From: a virus
Lineage: Duplodnaviria; Heunggongvirae; Uroviricota; Caudoviricetes
IMG/VR virus record: IMGVR_UViG_2700988907_000001
Direction: 5' to 3' (one strand)
DNA: 18,204 nt
Position numbers and translations under genes: made by a program. This document shows, one piece after another, positions 1,385 to 18,204 of the stretch. The notes under the pieces were generated by a model. That model worked only from the letters and a program-made list of their open reading frames with translations. It was not told the DNA's origin and ran no database searches. Numbering within the stretch: position 1 is the first letter of the stretch; each line of letters begins with the position of its first letter.

Positions 1385-2257
1385 TTAATTTTTTTCAATA
1401 ATATCCTTTGAGTCCCAACCTCTTAAATATCTTTTGTAAAGTTTGTCTTTAGATACTTTTAGTTCTACCGCCCATTCTGAAATAGTTTTGGTTTTATCGT
1501 TGTAAGTTAGTTTTATTTCTCTATCTTTAGTGCTTTTGTTTAGAATATTTTTCACATTCCAACCTTTTTCTAACCTATAATGAATAATATATTTTGGCAA
1601 TCCTGTATATTTACTCCAATCAGATATAGATTTTTTATCTCCATTATATGTTAAATATATTTCATTATCTGTTCTAGGAGTAGTCATTATTTTCTCATCT
1701 GACCAACCACGTTTTTTCCTACTTCTAACACTATTTTCATCCATATTTAAAATTTTACCTGCTTCTTTGAAAGTATATTTTTTATTGTTATACTCTATAA
1801 ACACATTATTTCTTTTATTGTTGGCTTGAACATACAAATCAACCCATCTACAATTCTCCGGATTATAATTTCCATCATTATTTATCCTGTCTATAGTCAA
1901 ATTAGGATTATACCCGTTTTCTAAAGACCAATTATAAAAAGATTCAAAGGAGTTTCTCCAAGCATCGCAAACTTTAATCCCTCTTCCTCCATAGTTATTA
2001 AATGATATGTTCTCTCTATTGTAACATCTGTCAATTATTTTATACCATCTATTATACAAATTTCTTCTTATAACATCTCTAGAATTTAAACAACCACAAG
2101 ATTTAGTCTTTTTTAAAGAGTCTAAACGGACAGCTTGTTTTTTGCCACATTTACATATAGTATTATAATATTTCCTTCCTTCATCATCTATTTTAGAAAG
2201 AGAGAGAGCCAATCTCTCTCCAAAATATTTTCCTACGTTATCATCTTTAAAAGTCAA
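1385..2257 (-). CDS. Free-standing HNH-type homing endonuclease with N-terminal Cys domain and three C-terminal DNA-binding repeats (likely TTG start at 2257, not 2350)
   Basis: Motifs GKYFG..CKCG..KSCGC and RCYN..YGGRGIKVCDAW..LTIDRINNDGNYNPENCRW, plus three (L/I)xYN..R..RGW repeats. SD GAGGAG (2268-2273) lies 10 nt before TTG. Confidence 0.85.
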   Translation of the reverse strand: MTFKDDNVGKYFGERLALSLSKIDDEGRKYYNTICKCGKKQAVRLDSLKKTKSCGCLNSRDVIRRNLYNRWYKIIDRCYNRENISFNNYGGRGIKVCDAWRNSFESFYNWSLENGYNPNLTIDRINNDGNYNPENCRWVDLYVQANNKRNNVFIEYNNKKYTFKEAGKILNMDENSVRSRKKRGWSDEKIMTTPRTDNEIYLTYNGDKKSISDWSKYTGLPKYIIHYRLEKGWNVKNILNKSTKDREIKLTYNDKTKTISEWAVELKVSKDKLYKRYLRGWDSKDIIEKN

Positions 2258-11476: not shown

Positions 11477-11614
11477 GGGGGAATTTTACACTGCCAGGGG
11501 GTCTTAAAGACCGTAGGGTAGGCTTATGGGGGTCTCTGATATCTTGTGGCTGTAGGGGTCCCCCTGTTTTTTATGTGAAAATTTGATTCTTTTTTAAAAG
11601 ACAAGCGCCCCCCC
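11477..11614. other. G/C-run cluster (packaging/terminus-like signal candidate)
   Basis: G5 11477, G5 11497, G3 11516, G5 11528, G4 11555, C5 11560, C7 11608, in an otherwise very AT-rich context. Confidence 0.45.
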
Positions 11615-15094: not shown

Positions 15095-15559
15095 TTATGC
15101 TAAACTATAATCATTTCCGTAAATATCTTTATATATTTTAATCTTATCTGGAACGCTAGAATGGTATTCTTTAATCCCGTTCATTACACCTAAGCCAATC
15201 ATTCTTGCATAGGATTGTGTTTTATAAGTTTTTGTATAATTAAACATTCTATCCATGATATTAAATGGTCTCAAGTCACATTCTTTATCGAAAATCACAC
15301 CAATTTTATCATTTCCCATTATTTCTATGTCTCTTTTATGTTCTTTTAGAAATCTTTCAGCTACATATAGCTCGTCTTCTGTAAAAATACCGTCAATTTT
15401 ACTAATAAATACCCCAAATGAGCCACTTTCAACCATTCTAATAGTCTCGATTTGCATGTTTTTTCCGTCTATTTTATCGTAAAATGTCTCGATTTCCATA
15501 ACATTATTAACTTTATTTAAGTCACTTACTTTTAATAAAAAATTCAATTCTTCATACAT
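15095..15559 (-). CDS. Hypothetical protein
   Basis: 154 aa, SD AAGGAG. Confidence 0.8.
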   Translation of the reverse strand: MYEELNFLLKVSDLNKVNNVMEIETFYDKIDGKNMQIETIRMVESGSFGVFISKIDGIFTEDELYVAERFLKEHKRDIEIMGNDKIGVIFDKECDLRPFNIMDRMFNYTKTYKTQSYARMIGLGVMNGIKEYHSSVPDKIKIYKDIYGNDYSLA

Positions 15560-15586
15560 TTTCCTAATTTCTCCTTATTTTCTTAC

Positions 15587-15916
15587 TTATTTTACCTTAT
15601 AATTAGTAATTCCACGCATTTTAAACTGTTTTCTTGCTGCTTTTATATTATTATCTGTTGGATTCTTTAATGTTACCACATATTTACCTCTTTTGTAAAG
15701 TATTGTATTAGAACCAGCTACTCTATTAAGTTCTGATTTTAATAATTCTAAACTTCTTTTACCATTTTCTTTAGAAAATTTATTATTTGCTACTTCTTGT
15801 TGCAGTTCTTGTTTACCACTATGTACTATTCCTAAGAAAATTAGTATAGGTATTATTATAAATTGTCCGATAATTATAAATGAACATATAATAAAAACTA
15901 ATCCAATTATAAACAT
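15587..15916 (-). CDS. Membrane-anchored hypothetical protein
   Basis: N-terminal hydrophobic segment; SD AAAGGAG. Confidence 0.8.
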   Translation of the reverse strand: MFIIGLVFIICSFIIIGQFIIIPILIFLGIVHSGKQELQQEVANNKFSKENGKRSLELLKSELNRVAGSNTILYKRGKYVVTLKNPTDNNIKAARKQFKMRGITNYKVK

Positions 15917-15931
15917 ATTAATCTCTCCTTT

Positions 15932-16249
15932 TTACATTATTCTAAAGTTTTTGACACCATGTTTAATAAGAATATCATATGTTTTTTCTTCGTTTTTCTT
16001 ATTAACAACATTAATATCAAAATATTTTCTTTTTATATCATATTCAAAACTACAATTACAATCTTTTTCAACTAATTCTTCAAGTAATTCAGTTCTTTTA
16101 TCTTTTCCAATCTGTTCATCTAAATATTCAACAGAATTTTTTCTTTTAGGTGCTAACTTCTTAGCTCCAAGTCCTAATAATCCAATAACTAAAATGTATG
16201 ACATATATATTAAACCTATAGTTACTCCTAACAGGAATAGTAATATCAT
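15932..16249 (-). CDS. Membrane-anchored hypothetical protein, probable paralogue of 15587-15916
   Basis: N-terminal hydrophobic segment and a similar C-domain pattern; SD AAGGAGTG. Confidence 0.8.
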   Translation of the reverse strand: MILLFLLGVTIGLIYMSYILVIGLLGLGAKKLAPKRKNSVEYLDEQIGKDKRTELLEELVEKDCNCSFEYDIKRKYFDINVVNKKNEEKTYDILIKHGVKNFRIM

Positions 16250-16279
16250 TATTAAACACTCCTTTTTGTTTATATATTA

Positions 16280-16307
16280 ATTATAACATATTATTTATCT
16301 TTGTCAA
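16280..16307 (-). promoter_or_regulatory. Possible internal sigmaA promoter
   Basis: TTGACA-16 nt-TATAAT with ATGT before the -10; the -35 lies inside upstream codons. Confidence 0.45.
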
Positions 16308-16614
16308 CCTTAAATTCATTAATAATATCTAAATATTCTTGTCTTTCTTGTTCTCTTTTCTCAATGGCTTGTTGTTTAGTTGAACGTTTATGTTTAATTA
16401 CTGTTACTAAAATTTCTGTATTACCTTTCTTTTGTAAGATAAATTCTCTATAATTTTTATAAAATATATGTTTTTTGTCTCCAATATTAATAATTCTTTT
16501 GTTTTTGAGCGCTTTTAAATCTTTCATTATAGCGTCTCTTGTTTTCTTTTGATTATAGTTGATACGTTCTGCATATCTCTCCATTGCATGGTCTGTAATT
16601 ATGTATTTTGTCAT
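16291..16614 (-). CDS. Small basic protein with ITDHAxERYxER motif (DUF4258/RelE-like fold candidate)
   Basis: 107 aa, SD AAGGAGTG. Confidence 0.6.
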   Translation of the reverse strand: MTKYIITDHAMERYAERINYNQKKTRDAIMKDLKALKNKRIINIGDKKHIFYKNYREFILQKKGNTEILVTVIKHKRSTKQQAIEKREQERQEYLDIINEFKVDKDK

Positions 16615-16670
16615 TTTTAATTCACTCCTTATTTGTTATACTCTTATTATAAACTAAAACTCTCAAAGTG

Positions 16671-17372
16671 TCAACCATGAGAGTTAGAAAAACTAGAAAT
16701 TTTTCTTTTTTTATTTTTAAATTTTACTTTCTTAAATTTTTTATAACTCCAGTATCTCATTGAATATAAATCTAAAAGTAACTTTGTATAATCTAAATTT
16801 AATTCATTCATAATTTTACAAAAACCAATGTCTTTTATAATATAAGTTTCGTTTTCTTTTTGAATAATATGATTTGAATCATTTTTTAAATCTTCGCATA
16901 TTTCAAAAATATATTTTTCGTTAGTATCTAAAATATCAGCAATTACTTTATGACTATAATATATTTGTCCATAAAGAACAGAATAAGGAATATTACCTAA
17001 CTCTGTATTATCGTGTTTGATTCCTTTATCTTTTGGAACATAAGCTATATCTTTGTTTTTATTATTTTTATTTCTATATTTTCCTAATATTAAACTAGAT
17101 TTTCTATGTTTCCTATTTCTACCTTTAAGATTTTTCAATAACAATTCATATCCTGTTTGGGATAAATAATATTTATTGTTTTTTAATATTACTATATTTT
17201 TTTCTCCTTTTTTTATAGATTTTACAATAGGAACTATTTTATCTTTTCTTAAATTCAATTGCTCTAATATATCATCTAATTTAATACAGTATAATATTTT
17301 GTTTCCTACTTTAAACTCATAAAAACTAACATCTACTTTTATACTATTATTATTAAAATTCTTTTTATACAT
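16671..17372 (-). CDS. Basic putative DNA-binding protein with two internal repeats (antirepressor-like)
   Basis: 233 aa. Segments LYCIKLDDILEQLN..KNNKYYLSQTGY and IYYSHKVIADILD..ENETYIIKDIGF; SD AAGGAG. Confidence 0.5.
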   Translation of the reverse strand: MYKKNFNNNSIKVDVSFYEFKVGNKILYCIKLDDILEQLNLRKDKIVPIVKSIKKGEKNIVILKNNKYYLSQTGYELLLKNLKGRNRKHRKSSLILGKYRNKNNKNKDIAYVPKDKGIKHDNTELGNIPYSVLYGQIYYSHKVIADILDTNEKYIFEICEDLKNDSNHIIQKENETYIIKDIGFCKIMNELNLDYTKLLLDLYSMRYWSYKKFKKVKFKNKKRKISSFSNSHG

Positions 17373-17430
17373 ATTGTTTCTCCTTATTCATACATAATAA
17401 AAAAACTATTGTATATTTTTCAGAATGAAA

Positions 17431-17630
17431 AATGTAATCAATATATATTTACAATGTGTTTGTTAGTGAGCTAAGCGAACTAACATTACAGATTGTTATA
17501 TATATTGTAAGTATCTCGATGAAGTGTTTAGTCGCTAACAAGTTAGCTCCTGTGTGCCAAAAATTACTACGTAATTGTTTGTCACAGTATTTTTTAATTA
17601 TTATTTTTTAAACACTTAATAACAAACACT
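17431..17630. other. Inverted-repeat cluster, replication-origin-like
   Basis: GTTAGT-11 nt-ACTAAC hairpin (17462-17484) flanked by caatatatat/atatatattg; GCTAAC-AA-GTTAGC; AATTAC-3 nt-GTAATT; AAACACT repeats. Confidence 0.35.
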
Positions 17631-17696
17631 CAATAAACAATAGTTAAAAAAGTATATACTTATCCCTAATATACTCTCTGTTCTCAAAAACTTTTT

Positions 17697-18019
17697 TCAA
17701 AAAGATACCGCACTTGAAAGCCTAACGGTAATTACATTGAGACGATACGTACTGAAAAGCACGCCTAAATTCTCCAAGTTAAAGCAACTGTTCTTACGGG
17801 AAGTTACAATAACACCCAACCTTTAAGTATTTATTGTGCGGACTGGTTTAACCACACTAGAACATAGCTAGATACTCAAAACGAAATAAGTCTAACGTAA
17901 CAATATACGCAATGCTATGCTGGTCTACTTTCTAATCATCATCTATTATCGGCGAGACGACCACCTGTCCGTTTATACAAACATAGGACAACTAACAAAA
18001 CTTAAACTATTTATTTTCT
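17697..18019 (-). ncRNA. Candidate ~320 nt structured non-coding RNA
   Basis: Consensus promoter at 18026-18055, no ORF or SD, raised GC, serial helices with G-U pairs, and a final stem plus U-tract at 17699-17730. Confidence 0.55.
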
Positions 18020-18025
18020 ATATAT

Positions 18026-18055
18026 ATTATAACATACACCTGATATATCTGTCAA
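18026..18055 (-). promoter_or_regulatory. sigmaA-type promoter of the non-coding region
   Basis: TTGACA-18 nt-TATAAT with ATGT before the -10. The 20-mer tttctatatatattataaca is duplicated ~80 bp upstream (second possible -10). Confidence 0.8.
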
Positions 18056-18204
18056 GCGTTTTTTAAAATTTATTTAAAAATATTATATTTTTTCTTTCTA
18101 TATATATTATAACACACAGAGTAATGTTTGTGTTAATTATTTTATGACAAATTTGTGACATTATTATTCTTATTTATGTAAAAAATTAGTAAACAACACC
18201 CGAA

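What the first reader, a model, noticed from the sequence alone, without database searches (positions are those of the whole stretch)
17697..18055. Promoter-driven ~320 nt multi-junction non-coding RNA candidate
From a consensus promoter, the minus transcript has no SD-led ORF and folds by eye into serial domains: hairpin TGTCC/GGACA (17966-17990); TGGTC/GACCA domain (17921-17963); an 8-bp helix AGCATAGC/GCTATGTT (17914-17921 with 17861-17868) closing two hairpins as a three-way junction; a second junction with GGG..CCC and GTAA/TTGC arms (~17776-17822); GCGTGC/GTACGT stem (17747-17764); and TACCG/CGGTA stem plus U-tract (17699-17730). The many G-U pairs argue for RNA-level selection. It is not tRNA, tmRNA or an obvious intron. 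It may be a new phage RNA class (decoy, scaffold, antitoxin) or a long attenuating leader for the downstream operon.
Basis: partly seen in the sequence, partly recalled or inferred. Interest (0 to 1): 0.75.

Follow-up and report, generated by a model that had tools for sequence, protein, structure and literature searches.

The report
Conserved early non-coding RNA of Sextaecvirus phages
Just downstream of two strong tandem promoters, this Staphylococcus epidermidis phage and its relatives keep a roughly 370-base untranslated RNA with a conserved three-way junction and hairpins; it matches no described RNA family and its function is unknown.

Summary
The window comes from a 6ec-like Staphylococcus epidermidis siphophage (genus Sextaecvirus). 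The promoter is real: a perfect TTGACA-18-TGTTATAAT. A second extended -10 copy lies 80 nt upstream. No ORF is conserved.

Relatives' substitutions preserve it no better than random mutations do. One named helix, TGGTC/GACCA, is broken in relatives.

- the 8-bp helix and its three-way junction (17861-17921)
- a following hairpin (17836-17857)
- the GCGUGC hairpin (17747-17764)
- the terminal hairpin (17706-17730)

All four keep pairing through compensatory changes. A covariance model built only from 6ec-type sequences finds a metagenomic relative with all 27 pairs canonical, 16 of them changed on both sides.

The element runs on to a conserved UAGGGAUAAGUAUA motif (to about 17647). It occurs in at least four clades and is absent from two phages. 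One clade keeps it without the downstream gene gp13. There is no Rfam match.

It is a real, undescribed, structured non-coding RNA element. Whether it is a self-contained early RNA or a cis-acting leader is open. First readers of this scan had flagged the same gap on three other 6ec-like genomes.

The parts
18106..18114 (-). Upstream promoter copy P1: extended -10 TGTTATAAT. A weak TTAACA -35 lies 19 nt upstream.
   Evidence: Read from the sequence. It is part of a 42-nt direct repeat spaced 80 nt from P2 (D1). Tandem promoter copies are also present in RQ1, SA2, PT1-4 and F1 (2 each) and in L021 (4).
18026..18055 (-). Promoter P2: TTGACA-18-TGTTATAAT, a 12/12 match to consensus. The start site is predicted near 18019.
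   Evidence: It is one of 8 perfect consensus promoters on this strand, against 0.11 expected. The start site is inferred, not measured.
17966..17990 (-). 5' hairpin UGUCC/GGACA.
   Evidence: Complementarity is present. It is invariant in three 6ec-type haplotypes, so they give no comparative evidence; L021 does not keep it in the MAFFT-based consensus fold. Other clades carry some hairpin at about this place.
17947..17953 (-). Conserved single-stranded island GCCGAUA, 67-85 nt from the predicted start in all clades.
   Evidence: Seen by eye in the 6ec, RQ1 and L021 sequences, and as GCCAUUU in F1. It is aligned by models R2 and R3.
17861..17921 (-). Three-way junction. The closing helix pairs 17914-17921 with 17861-17868. 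Hairpin 1 is 17895-17910 and hairpin 2 is 17869-17894.
   Evidence: The window and L021 fold independently to the same topology. Model R2 hits L021 at E 0.004-0.013 with all pairs canonical. In the closing helix, 7 of 8 pairs are changed on both sides.
17836..17857 (-). Hairpin GUGUGG/CCGCAC, followed by the A-rich island CACAAUAAA.
   Evidence: z = -3.45. U.G becomes A-U in L104, and G-C becomes A-U in L021. It is aligned in F1 by model R3.
17747..17764 (-). Hairpin GCGUGCU/AGUACGU, preceded by the conserved UUGGAGA island (17773-17779).
   Evidence: z = -3.0. In L104, G-C becomes A-U and G.U becomes A-U.
17699..17730 (-). Hairpin A (17706-17730, conserved GGCU at the start of the loop) followed by UCUUUUU. 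It is terminator-like but weak (-7 kcal/mol).
   Evidence: Model R1 finds it in RQ1, SA2, PT1-4, L021 and L129. 5 of 6 pairs are changed on both sides. The U-tract is not conserved in RQ1, F1 or L021.
17647..17679 (-). Hairpin B carrying the conserved motif UAGGGAUAAGUAUA in its loop and 3' arm. AGUUUUU lies in the linker before it.
   Evidence: z = -3.3. The motif is single-copy in every relative. The stem is only partly kept: 3 mismatches in L104 and poor pairing in L021.
17386..17646 (-). The rest of the untranslated stretch before gp13, densely packed with inverted repeats, including GCUAAC-UU-GUUAGC and GUUAGU-N11-ACUAAC.
   Evidence: z = -4.15 on both strands. CF9 keeps -65 kcal/mol while random mutants fall to -52.5 +/- 4.3, 0 of 150 as stable. 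Whether this acts in RNA or DNA is not settled.
16671..17372 (-). gp13, the first gene downstream (233 aa, lysine-rich, no known family).
   Evidence: Homologues follow the element in L021 (42% identity) and F1 (36%). It is absent from the RQ1 clade and frameshifted in several S-CoN phages.

Best explanation
This is a conserved, untranslated, structured RNA element that defines its own early transcription unit in Sextaecvirus phages.

Host sigma-A RNA polymerase is predicted to start at tandem consensus promoters, near 18019 from P2. It would transcribe about 370 nt of RNA (to about 17647). This RNA has short conserved single-stranded islands separating covarying helices: a three-way junction, three hairpins, and a 3' module made of a GGCU-loop hairpin, AGUUUUU and UAGGGAUAAGUAUA.

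I think the RNA itself is the product, an abundant early non-coding RNA. In 6ec-type phages part of the transcripts probably end at the weak hairpin-plus-U-tract (giving about 320 nt) and the rest read on into gp13.

Shown: the promoter consensus, the absence of coding, the conservation of the structure, and retention of the element without gp13. Inferred: the start site, the 3' end, early timing, abundance, and any action in trans.
For: Promoters:
- Perfect consensus promoter, with tandem copies in every clade that has the element.

Non-coding:
- No conserved ORF.

Structure:
- The three-way junction and the following hairpin fold identically in the window and in L021.
- A model built from 6ec-type sequences alone finds L021 at E 0.004-0.013 with all 27 pairs canonical.
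- 16 of 27 pairs are changed on both sides. 99% of cells are paired, against 28-48% when the partners are slid.
- Hairpin A covaries in 5 of 6 pairs across clades.
- The enlarged model places its best hit in F1/DH5 exactly where expected.

The RNA strand:
- The transcribed strand folds far better than its complement: -72.9 against -51.1 kcal/mol.
- G.U pairs sit in the covarying helices.

A unit of its own:
- The RQ1, SA2 and PT1-4 clade has the tandem promoters and the RNA but no gp13. The next gene, a gp12 homologue, has its own consensus promoter.
- Between RQ1 and SA2 the RNA is 97-100% identical, while the flanks are 43-94% identical.
- GC is 0.36, against about 0.27 for the window.
Against: - No transcript has been observed. 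The public RNA runs hold only short contigs and show nothing about ends.
- The full-length fold is not better than shuffles.
- The 5' half shows no retention of stability (fraction 0.42).
- No canonical terminator is found. Hairpin A is weak, and its U-tract is not conserved.
- In the 6ec, L021 and F1 clades no clear promoter separates the element from gp13, so there it is formally a 5' leader.
- The covariation rests on few independent lineages and on model-fitted alignments.
- The genomes are mosaic, so high local identity can reflect recent recombination.
- PMBT8 and PT94 lack the element, so it is dispensable.
Confidence: 0.45

Rival explanations
1. It is a cis-acting 5' leader of the leftward early operon. 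The conserved 3' module (hairpin A, linker, AGGGA motif) would be a regulatory site on the nascent transcript: an attenuator, or a nut/put-like antitermination or processing site. The GGAG island would act as a 5' stabiliser. Any short RNA would then be a by-product, like the lambda pR'-tR' 6S transcript.
For: - In the 6ec, L021 and F1 clades the next feature on the strand is gp13, with no clear promoter of its own.
- Hairpin A with UCUUUUU lies about 330 nt upstream of gp13.
- The layout, conserved linear motifs flanking a hairpin with covarying stem and conserved loop, resembles nut sites. This resemblance is from my own knowledge.
- The operon is 6.4 kb long and ends at terminators next to cos.
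- SD-like GGAG islands are conserved.
Against: - The RQ1 clade keeps the promoters and the RNA although gp13 is gone and gp12 has its own promoter.
- The other seven consensus promoters in the window lie among closely packed ORFs, with no comparable ORF-free stretch downstream.
- A three-way junction about 100-160 nt from the start is not needed for any of these cis mechanisms.
- No antiterminator protein is identified.
Confidence: 0.33
2. It is a DNA-level element rather than an RNA: operators, a transcription-activated replication origin, or packaging signals in the divergent control region. In that case the inverted repeats matter as duplex DNA.
For: - The region lies between divergent gene blocks.
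- The stretch 17373-17696 is equally structured on both strands. It holds unique palindromes, GCTAAC-NN-GTTAGC and GTTAGT-N11-ACTAAC.
- Promoter-plus-unwinding-element origins are known in T4 and T7. This is from my own knowledge.
Against: - The cos site is elsewhere: AAGCGCCCCC at 11603-11612 (PMC4125762).
- The covarying helices contain G.U pairs, which are mismatches in DNA.
- The conserved islands are single-stranded loops and linkers, not palindromes.
Confidence: 0.12
3. There is no function beyond the promoters. The stretch would be decaying spacer or the remnant of lost genes, with its conservation explained by recent recombination among mosaic phages.
For: - The overall fold is at chance level.
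- The element is absent from PMBT8 and PT94.
- Identity profiles are mosaic.
Against: - Compensatory changes occur in four helices across lineages that are otherwise barely alignable.
- Two diverged sequences fold to the same topology.
- GC is raised in an AT-rich genome whose coding density is reported as 88% (PMC4125762).
Confidence: 0.1

Closest known systems
phi29 pRNA (Rfam Phage_pRNA)
   Same: A phage-encoded non-coding RNA made from an early promoter, built around a three-way junction, and lying next to the packaging genes.
   Different: It gave no match in the scan of all 4227 Rfam families, which should include this model, even at E up to 10. The phage is a cos-packaging siphovirus with TerS, TerL and HNH, not a protein-primed podovirus. 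This element is about 370 nt, against 120-174 nt for pRNA. It is dispensable in related phages. No interlocking loop pair was identified.
Lambda pR'-tR' 6S leader RNA, and nut/put antitermination sites
   Same: A strong promoter followed by a short untranslated RNA that ends at a hairpin, upstream of a long operon. Conserved linear motifs sit beside a hairpin with covarying stem and conserved loop.
   Different: No sequence or family relationship. No Q- or N-like protein was identified. The hairpin is a weak terminator. The element persists where the first gene is lost.
T7 early region (tandem A1-A3 host promoters and a long untranslated leader with an RNase III site) and the SP82/SPO1 early leaders with 5' stabilisers
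   Same: Tandem host-type consensus promoters, a leader of several hundred nucleotides, and SD-like purine tracts.
   Different: The comparison is by analogy only, from my own knowledge. This element has a conserved multi-helix core that those leaders are not known to have.
Large phage-associated ncRNAs ROOL and GOLLD, and Y-RNA-like YrlA
   Same: Structured non-coding RNAs carried by phages of Firmicutes. 6ec-type phages also encode a DUF2828/vWA protein annotated as 'RNA-binding' 1.1 kb away.
   Different: None of them matched in the Rfam-wide scans, which should include these models. The size and architecture differ. The DUF2828 gene is absent from other clades that have the element.

Membership tests
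Any Rfam 15 family (all 4227 models; Phage_pRNA, ROOL, GOLLD, YrlA, 6S, tmRNA and T-box should be among them) | A covariance-model score at or above the family's gathering threshold. | tested here: not met
   There were 0 matches in the window at gathering score. Nothing relevant appeared at E up to 10 in the 6ec locus, or at E up to 1 in the RQ1, F1 and SpP loci.
Sigma-A (sigma-70-type) promoter | -35 TTGACA, a 16-18 nt spacer and -10 TATAAT, with an optional TG extension. | tested here: met
   A 12/12 match with TG. It is conserved in all clades. Activity was not measured.
Intrinsic (Rho-independent) terminator | A stable G+C-rich hairpin with a short loop, immediately followed by a U-tract. 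| tested here: inconclusive
   The scan found none in 16500-18204. Hairpin A has 6+3 bp around a loop with an internal bulge, folds at -7.0 kcal/mol, and is followed by UCUUUUU. The U-tract is degenerate in RQ1, F1 and L021.
Structured non-coding RNA (generic criteria) | Conserved secondary structure supported by compensatory base changes in homologues. | tested here: met
   For the three-way junction and following hairpin, 16 of 27 pairs are changed on both sides and 99% of cells are paired. For hairpin A, 5 of 6 pairs are. Caveat: few independent lineages and model-fitted alignments.
Structured non-coding RNA (generic criteria) | Thermodynamic stability above the composition-matched background. 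| tested here: not met
   The whole 331 nt gives z = -0.66. Only sub-domains reach z of -2 to -3.5.
Structured non-coding RNA (generic criteria) | A discrete transcript with defined ends. | not testable with these tools
   Only assembled contigs of metatranscriptome or unclear libraries were available.
Protein-coding small gene | An ORF with a start codon and SD, conserved in relatives under purifying selection. | tested here: not met
   No ORF is shared between clades. The 40-aa TTG ORF has about 11 amino-acid changes and loses its stop in L104.
cos site / packaging signal | Contains the cohesive-end sequence of the phage. | tested here: not met
   The 6ec overhang AAGCGCCCCC (PMC4125762) lies at window 11603-11612, 6 kb away.

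The most novel reading that the evidence does not exclude
The element is a new class of phage-encoded trans-acting RNA. It would be made in large amounts from tandem host promoters at the start of infection. Its conserved single-stranded islands (GCCGAUA, CAAUAAA, UUGGAGA, the GGCU loop, UAGGGAUAAGUAUA) would be displayed on a covarying scaffold to bind or sequester a host or phage factor. That would make it a decoy or scaffold used for host takeover or counter-defence, which would explain why it is accessory, evolves fast and is kept without gp13.
Probability: 0.25. Interest if true: 0.8.

Novelty: new variant of a known kind. Interest (0 to 1): 0.58.

Why it matters
Sextaecvirus phages are being isolated as therapy candidates against Staphylococcus epidermidis biofilm infections, and most of their early genes have no known function. 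A conserved, highly expressed, structured early RNA would be a new regulatory or host-interaction component of these phages. It would also be a new entry for RNA family databases.

The RNA can be studied directly:
- The phages grow on laboratory strains.
- Natural variants without the element (PMBT8, PT94) and without gp13 (RQ1, SA2) exist.
- The helices and conserved loops defined here give precise targets for mutation.

Tried and rejected
- **Public RNA runs.** One true metatranscriptome and several unclear libraries hold pieces of the phage, but only as short assembled contigs scattered over the window. They show nothing about transcription, ends or strand.
- **Sequence-only homology between clades.** blastn and nhmmer found only the promoter region and a 47-nt island. 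E-INS-i with RNAalifold on all clades gave no consensus structure. MAFFT Q-INS-i is not installed.
- **MAFFT alignment of the junction with L021.** It was misaligned, so model-based alignment was used instead.
- **cos site in the gap.** I considered this because three records end at window 18204. I rejected it because the published cos overhang is at 11603.
- **Y-RNA idea.** I considered it because a DUF2828/vWA 'RNA-binding' gene is nearby. There was no YrlA or Y RNA hit, and that gene is missing from other clades that have the element.
- **Host mimicry or host-derived sequence.** There was no meaningful match in 41 genomes, apart from one assembly that carries the phage contig.
- **Leader peptide or uORF attenuation.** Small ORFs near hairpin A exist in some clades but are not conserved in position or sequence.
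- **Long-range pairings.** I saw possible pairings of the AGGGA loop and the GGCU loop with upstream segments by eye. They are too short and too inconsistent to claim.
- **Pattern scans of large collections.** Scans of metagenome and genome collections gave mostly chance matches. Only phage-like contigs passed the model.
- **RQ1-clade junction.** Model R3 did not detect it.

Full report
**Context.** The window is from a 6ec-like siphophage of Staphylococcus epidermidis, genus Sextaecvirus, about 90 kb. 27 GenBank phage records match the 900-nt region at 91-99% identity. In 6ec the finding lies in a 920-bp stretch without credible genes. On one side is a leftward gene block beginning with gp13 (window 16671-17372, minus strand). 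On the other is a rightward block of gp14, HNH endonuclease, small terminase and more. The published cohesive end of 6ec, AAGCGCCCCC (PMC4125762), is at window 11603-11612. The leftward block therefore runs about 6.4 kb from the finding to terminators beside cos, and the gap is not the packaging site.

**The observation: what holds.**
- The promoter is real as a sequence feature: TTGACA, 18 nt, TATAAT, with a TG extension. It is one of eight perfect consensus promoters on this strand, where 0.11 are expected. The other seven lie among closely packed ORFs, with no comparable ORF-free stretch downstream, so 650 nt without a gene stands out.
- A second TGTTATAAT lies 80 nt upstream, in a direct repeat.
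- No tRNA or tmRNA was found. No Rfam family matched at gathering or relaxed thresholds.
- No ORF is conserved. The only 40-codon frame has a TTG start with no spacing from its SD-like tract. It accumulates amino-acid changes and loses its stop in a relative.

**The observation: what does not hold.**
- The 331-nt fold is not special: z = -0.66.
- I replaced the window's sequence with natural variants and compared each with random mutants carrying the same number and kind of changes. The candidate as a whole keeps its stability no better than chance. The fraction of random mutants at least as stable is 0.37 for CF9 and 0.11 for the 86%-identical metagenomic variant L104.
- Only the 3' half (17870-17697) shows retention, at 0.027.
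- The transcribed strand folds 22 kcal/mol better than its complement. This reflects its G+U-rich composition, which the shuffles share, so 'many G-U pairs' is not in itself evidence of selection.

**Relatives.** I used the neighbouring HNH gene as an anchor.
- The same architecture occurs in more distant Sextaecvirus phages. RQ1, SA2 and PT1-4 (HNH 74-78% identical) and F1/DH5 (57%) have two tandem promoters followed by 320-420 nt without genes.
- The metagenomic contig L021 (HNH 64%) has four tandem promoters.
- PMBT8 and PT94 lack the promoters, the RNA and gp13 altogether. Their gap is only about 180 bp, as measured from the gp14-like start in both.
- In the RQ1 clade gp13 is missing. The non-coding stretch is followed directly by the consensus promoter of the gp12 homologue, so there the tandem promoters drive a unit with no ORF at all.
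- Between RQ1 and SA2 the stretch from the predicted start to the 3' module is 97-100% identical, while both flanks are 43-94% identical.
- The bodies are not alignable by blastn or nhmmer between clades. Semi-global alignment against shuffles links the window to L021 (z 5.7) and RQ1 to F1 (z 3.3).
- By eye, short islands recur in the same order: a 5' AAUUAAAUA, GCCGAYA, CA(C)AAUAAA followed by UGGG, UUGGAGA, and AAUGUAAUU.

**The 3' module.**
- A covariance model (R1) built from 6ec-type sequences alone finds the module at the expected place in RQ1, SA2, PT1-4, L021 and a further contig, at E 0.003-0.03.
- The hairpin's stem differs in each clade: UACCGU/GCGGUA, UACCAU/AUGGUA, GGUUAU/AUAACC, AAUCUG/CAGAUU, and by eye AUCUUUAU/AUAAAGAU in F1. 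The loop always begins with GGCU. 5 of 6 pairs are changed on both sides.
- The U-tract that makes the hairpin terminator-like in 6ec is not kept elsewhere. The hairpin is weak at -7 kcal/mol, and the terminator scan reports nothing.

**The core.**
- Single-sequence folding of window 17836-17925 and of the aligned part of L021 gives the same topology in both. There is a closing helix of 7-8 bp, two hairpins stacked into a three-way junction, then a separate hairpin followed by CACAAUAAA.
- The helices have different sequences in the two.
- A model (R2) built only from the window, CF9 and L104 hits L021 full-length at E 0.004-0.013 with no non-canonical pair. 16 of 27 pairs are changed on both sides, and 99% of cells are paired against 28-48% when the partners are slid.
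- Adding L021 to the model (R3) puts its best hit in F1/DH5 exactly between their GCCAUUU and CAAUAAA islands, at E 0.11-0.14.
- Within the 6ec clade, L104 shows compensatory changes in GUGUGG/CCGCAC and GCGUGCU/AGUACGU. CF9 shows them in junction hairpin 2 and in hairpin A.
- Caveats: the covariation rests on a handful of lineages, the alignments are fitted to the model, and the E-values are rough.

The remaining 325 nt before gp13 (17373-17696) is far more structured than the candidate itself. It has z = -4.15 on both strands. CF9 preserves the stability although random mutants lose 16 kcal/mol (0 of 150 as stable). It contains palindromes found nowhere else in the window. The equivalent stretch is shorter and not unusually structured in L021. 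It may act in RNA or in DNA; the strands do not differ enough to tell.

**Interpretation.**
- A real, undescribed, structured non-coding RNA element family sits at the head of the leftward early block of many Sextaecvirus phages.
- For an RNA product in its own right: the RQ1 clade keeps it without gp13, it is the most conserved segment locally, it has dedicated tandem promoters, and it is accessory and fast-evolving.
- For a cis-acting leader: it runs directly into gp13 in three clades, and the 3' module resembles nut-type sites.
- I rate a self-contained early RNA at 0.45, a cis leader at 0.33, a DNA-level site at 0.12, and no function at 0.10.
- No experiment or usable transcript data exists.

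**Earlier notes in this scan.** First readers had flagged the same gap on three other 6ec-like genomes. One read it as a large ncRNA candidate, which agrees with this report. One read a GC-rich cos candidate, which the published cos sequence contradicts. One read GCTAAC/GTTAGC operators, which concerns the downstream part and remains open.

Noticed in passing
L001 (phage 6ec) 6667-6729 and 6744-6803, + strand; outside the window: Two tandem hairpins of about 60 nt share the motif CUUACAGCAA. They lie just downstream of gp17, a DUF2828 + DUF7788 (vWA-like) protein annotated 'RNA-binding'. They give a weak Rfam hit to Dictyostelium Class I RNA (E about 1) and fold at z -1.3 and -1.5. They could be small RNA partners of that protein, but this is untested.
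   Followed up: partly
window 17373-17696: This stretch is dense with inverted repeats (z -4.15 on both strands), and their stability is preserved in CF9. It includes GCTAAC-TT-GTTAGC and GTTAGT-N11-ACTAAC, which are unique in the window. It could be an operator or origin in DNA, or a structured 5' UTR of gp13.
   Followed up: partly
window, minus strand: 3269, 3667, 4622, 11748, 12544, 16280, 16646, 18026 (match start, i.e. lower coordinate): There are eight perfect TTGACA-N16-18-TATAAT promoters on one strand of an 18-kb window, against 0.11 expected. This is a very strong host-polymerase promoter set for the leftward genes.
   Followed up: no
window 16671-17372 (gp13) and its homologues in S-CoN phages: gp13 is split by frameshifts in several S-CoN phage records, where tblastn matches in 2 pieces. 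It is absent from the RQ1 clade, while the upstream RNA stays intact.
   Followed up: partly
window 11603-11612: The published 10-nt cos overhang of 6ec (AAGCGCCCCC) lies here, so the physical genome end falls inside the window. The records of CF1 and CF9, and the window itself, end instead at 18204, which is not the cos site.
   Followed up: yes
L021 (IMG/VR contig, 4245 nt), about 1610-1850, minus strand: Four tandem promoter units spaced about 72 nt apart lie upstream of the RNA. Three have TGTTATAAT; the second has a weaker -10 (TACACT). They look like an amplified version of the two-copy arrangement in the window.
   Followed up: partly
window 15100-17100 versus 17100-18204, compared with CF9: There is a sharp mosaic boundary. 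The window and CF9 are about 100% identical from 15.1 to 17.1 kb, then 83-97% identical across the 5' half of gp13 and the whole gap. This indicates recombination inside gp13.
   Followed up: no
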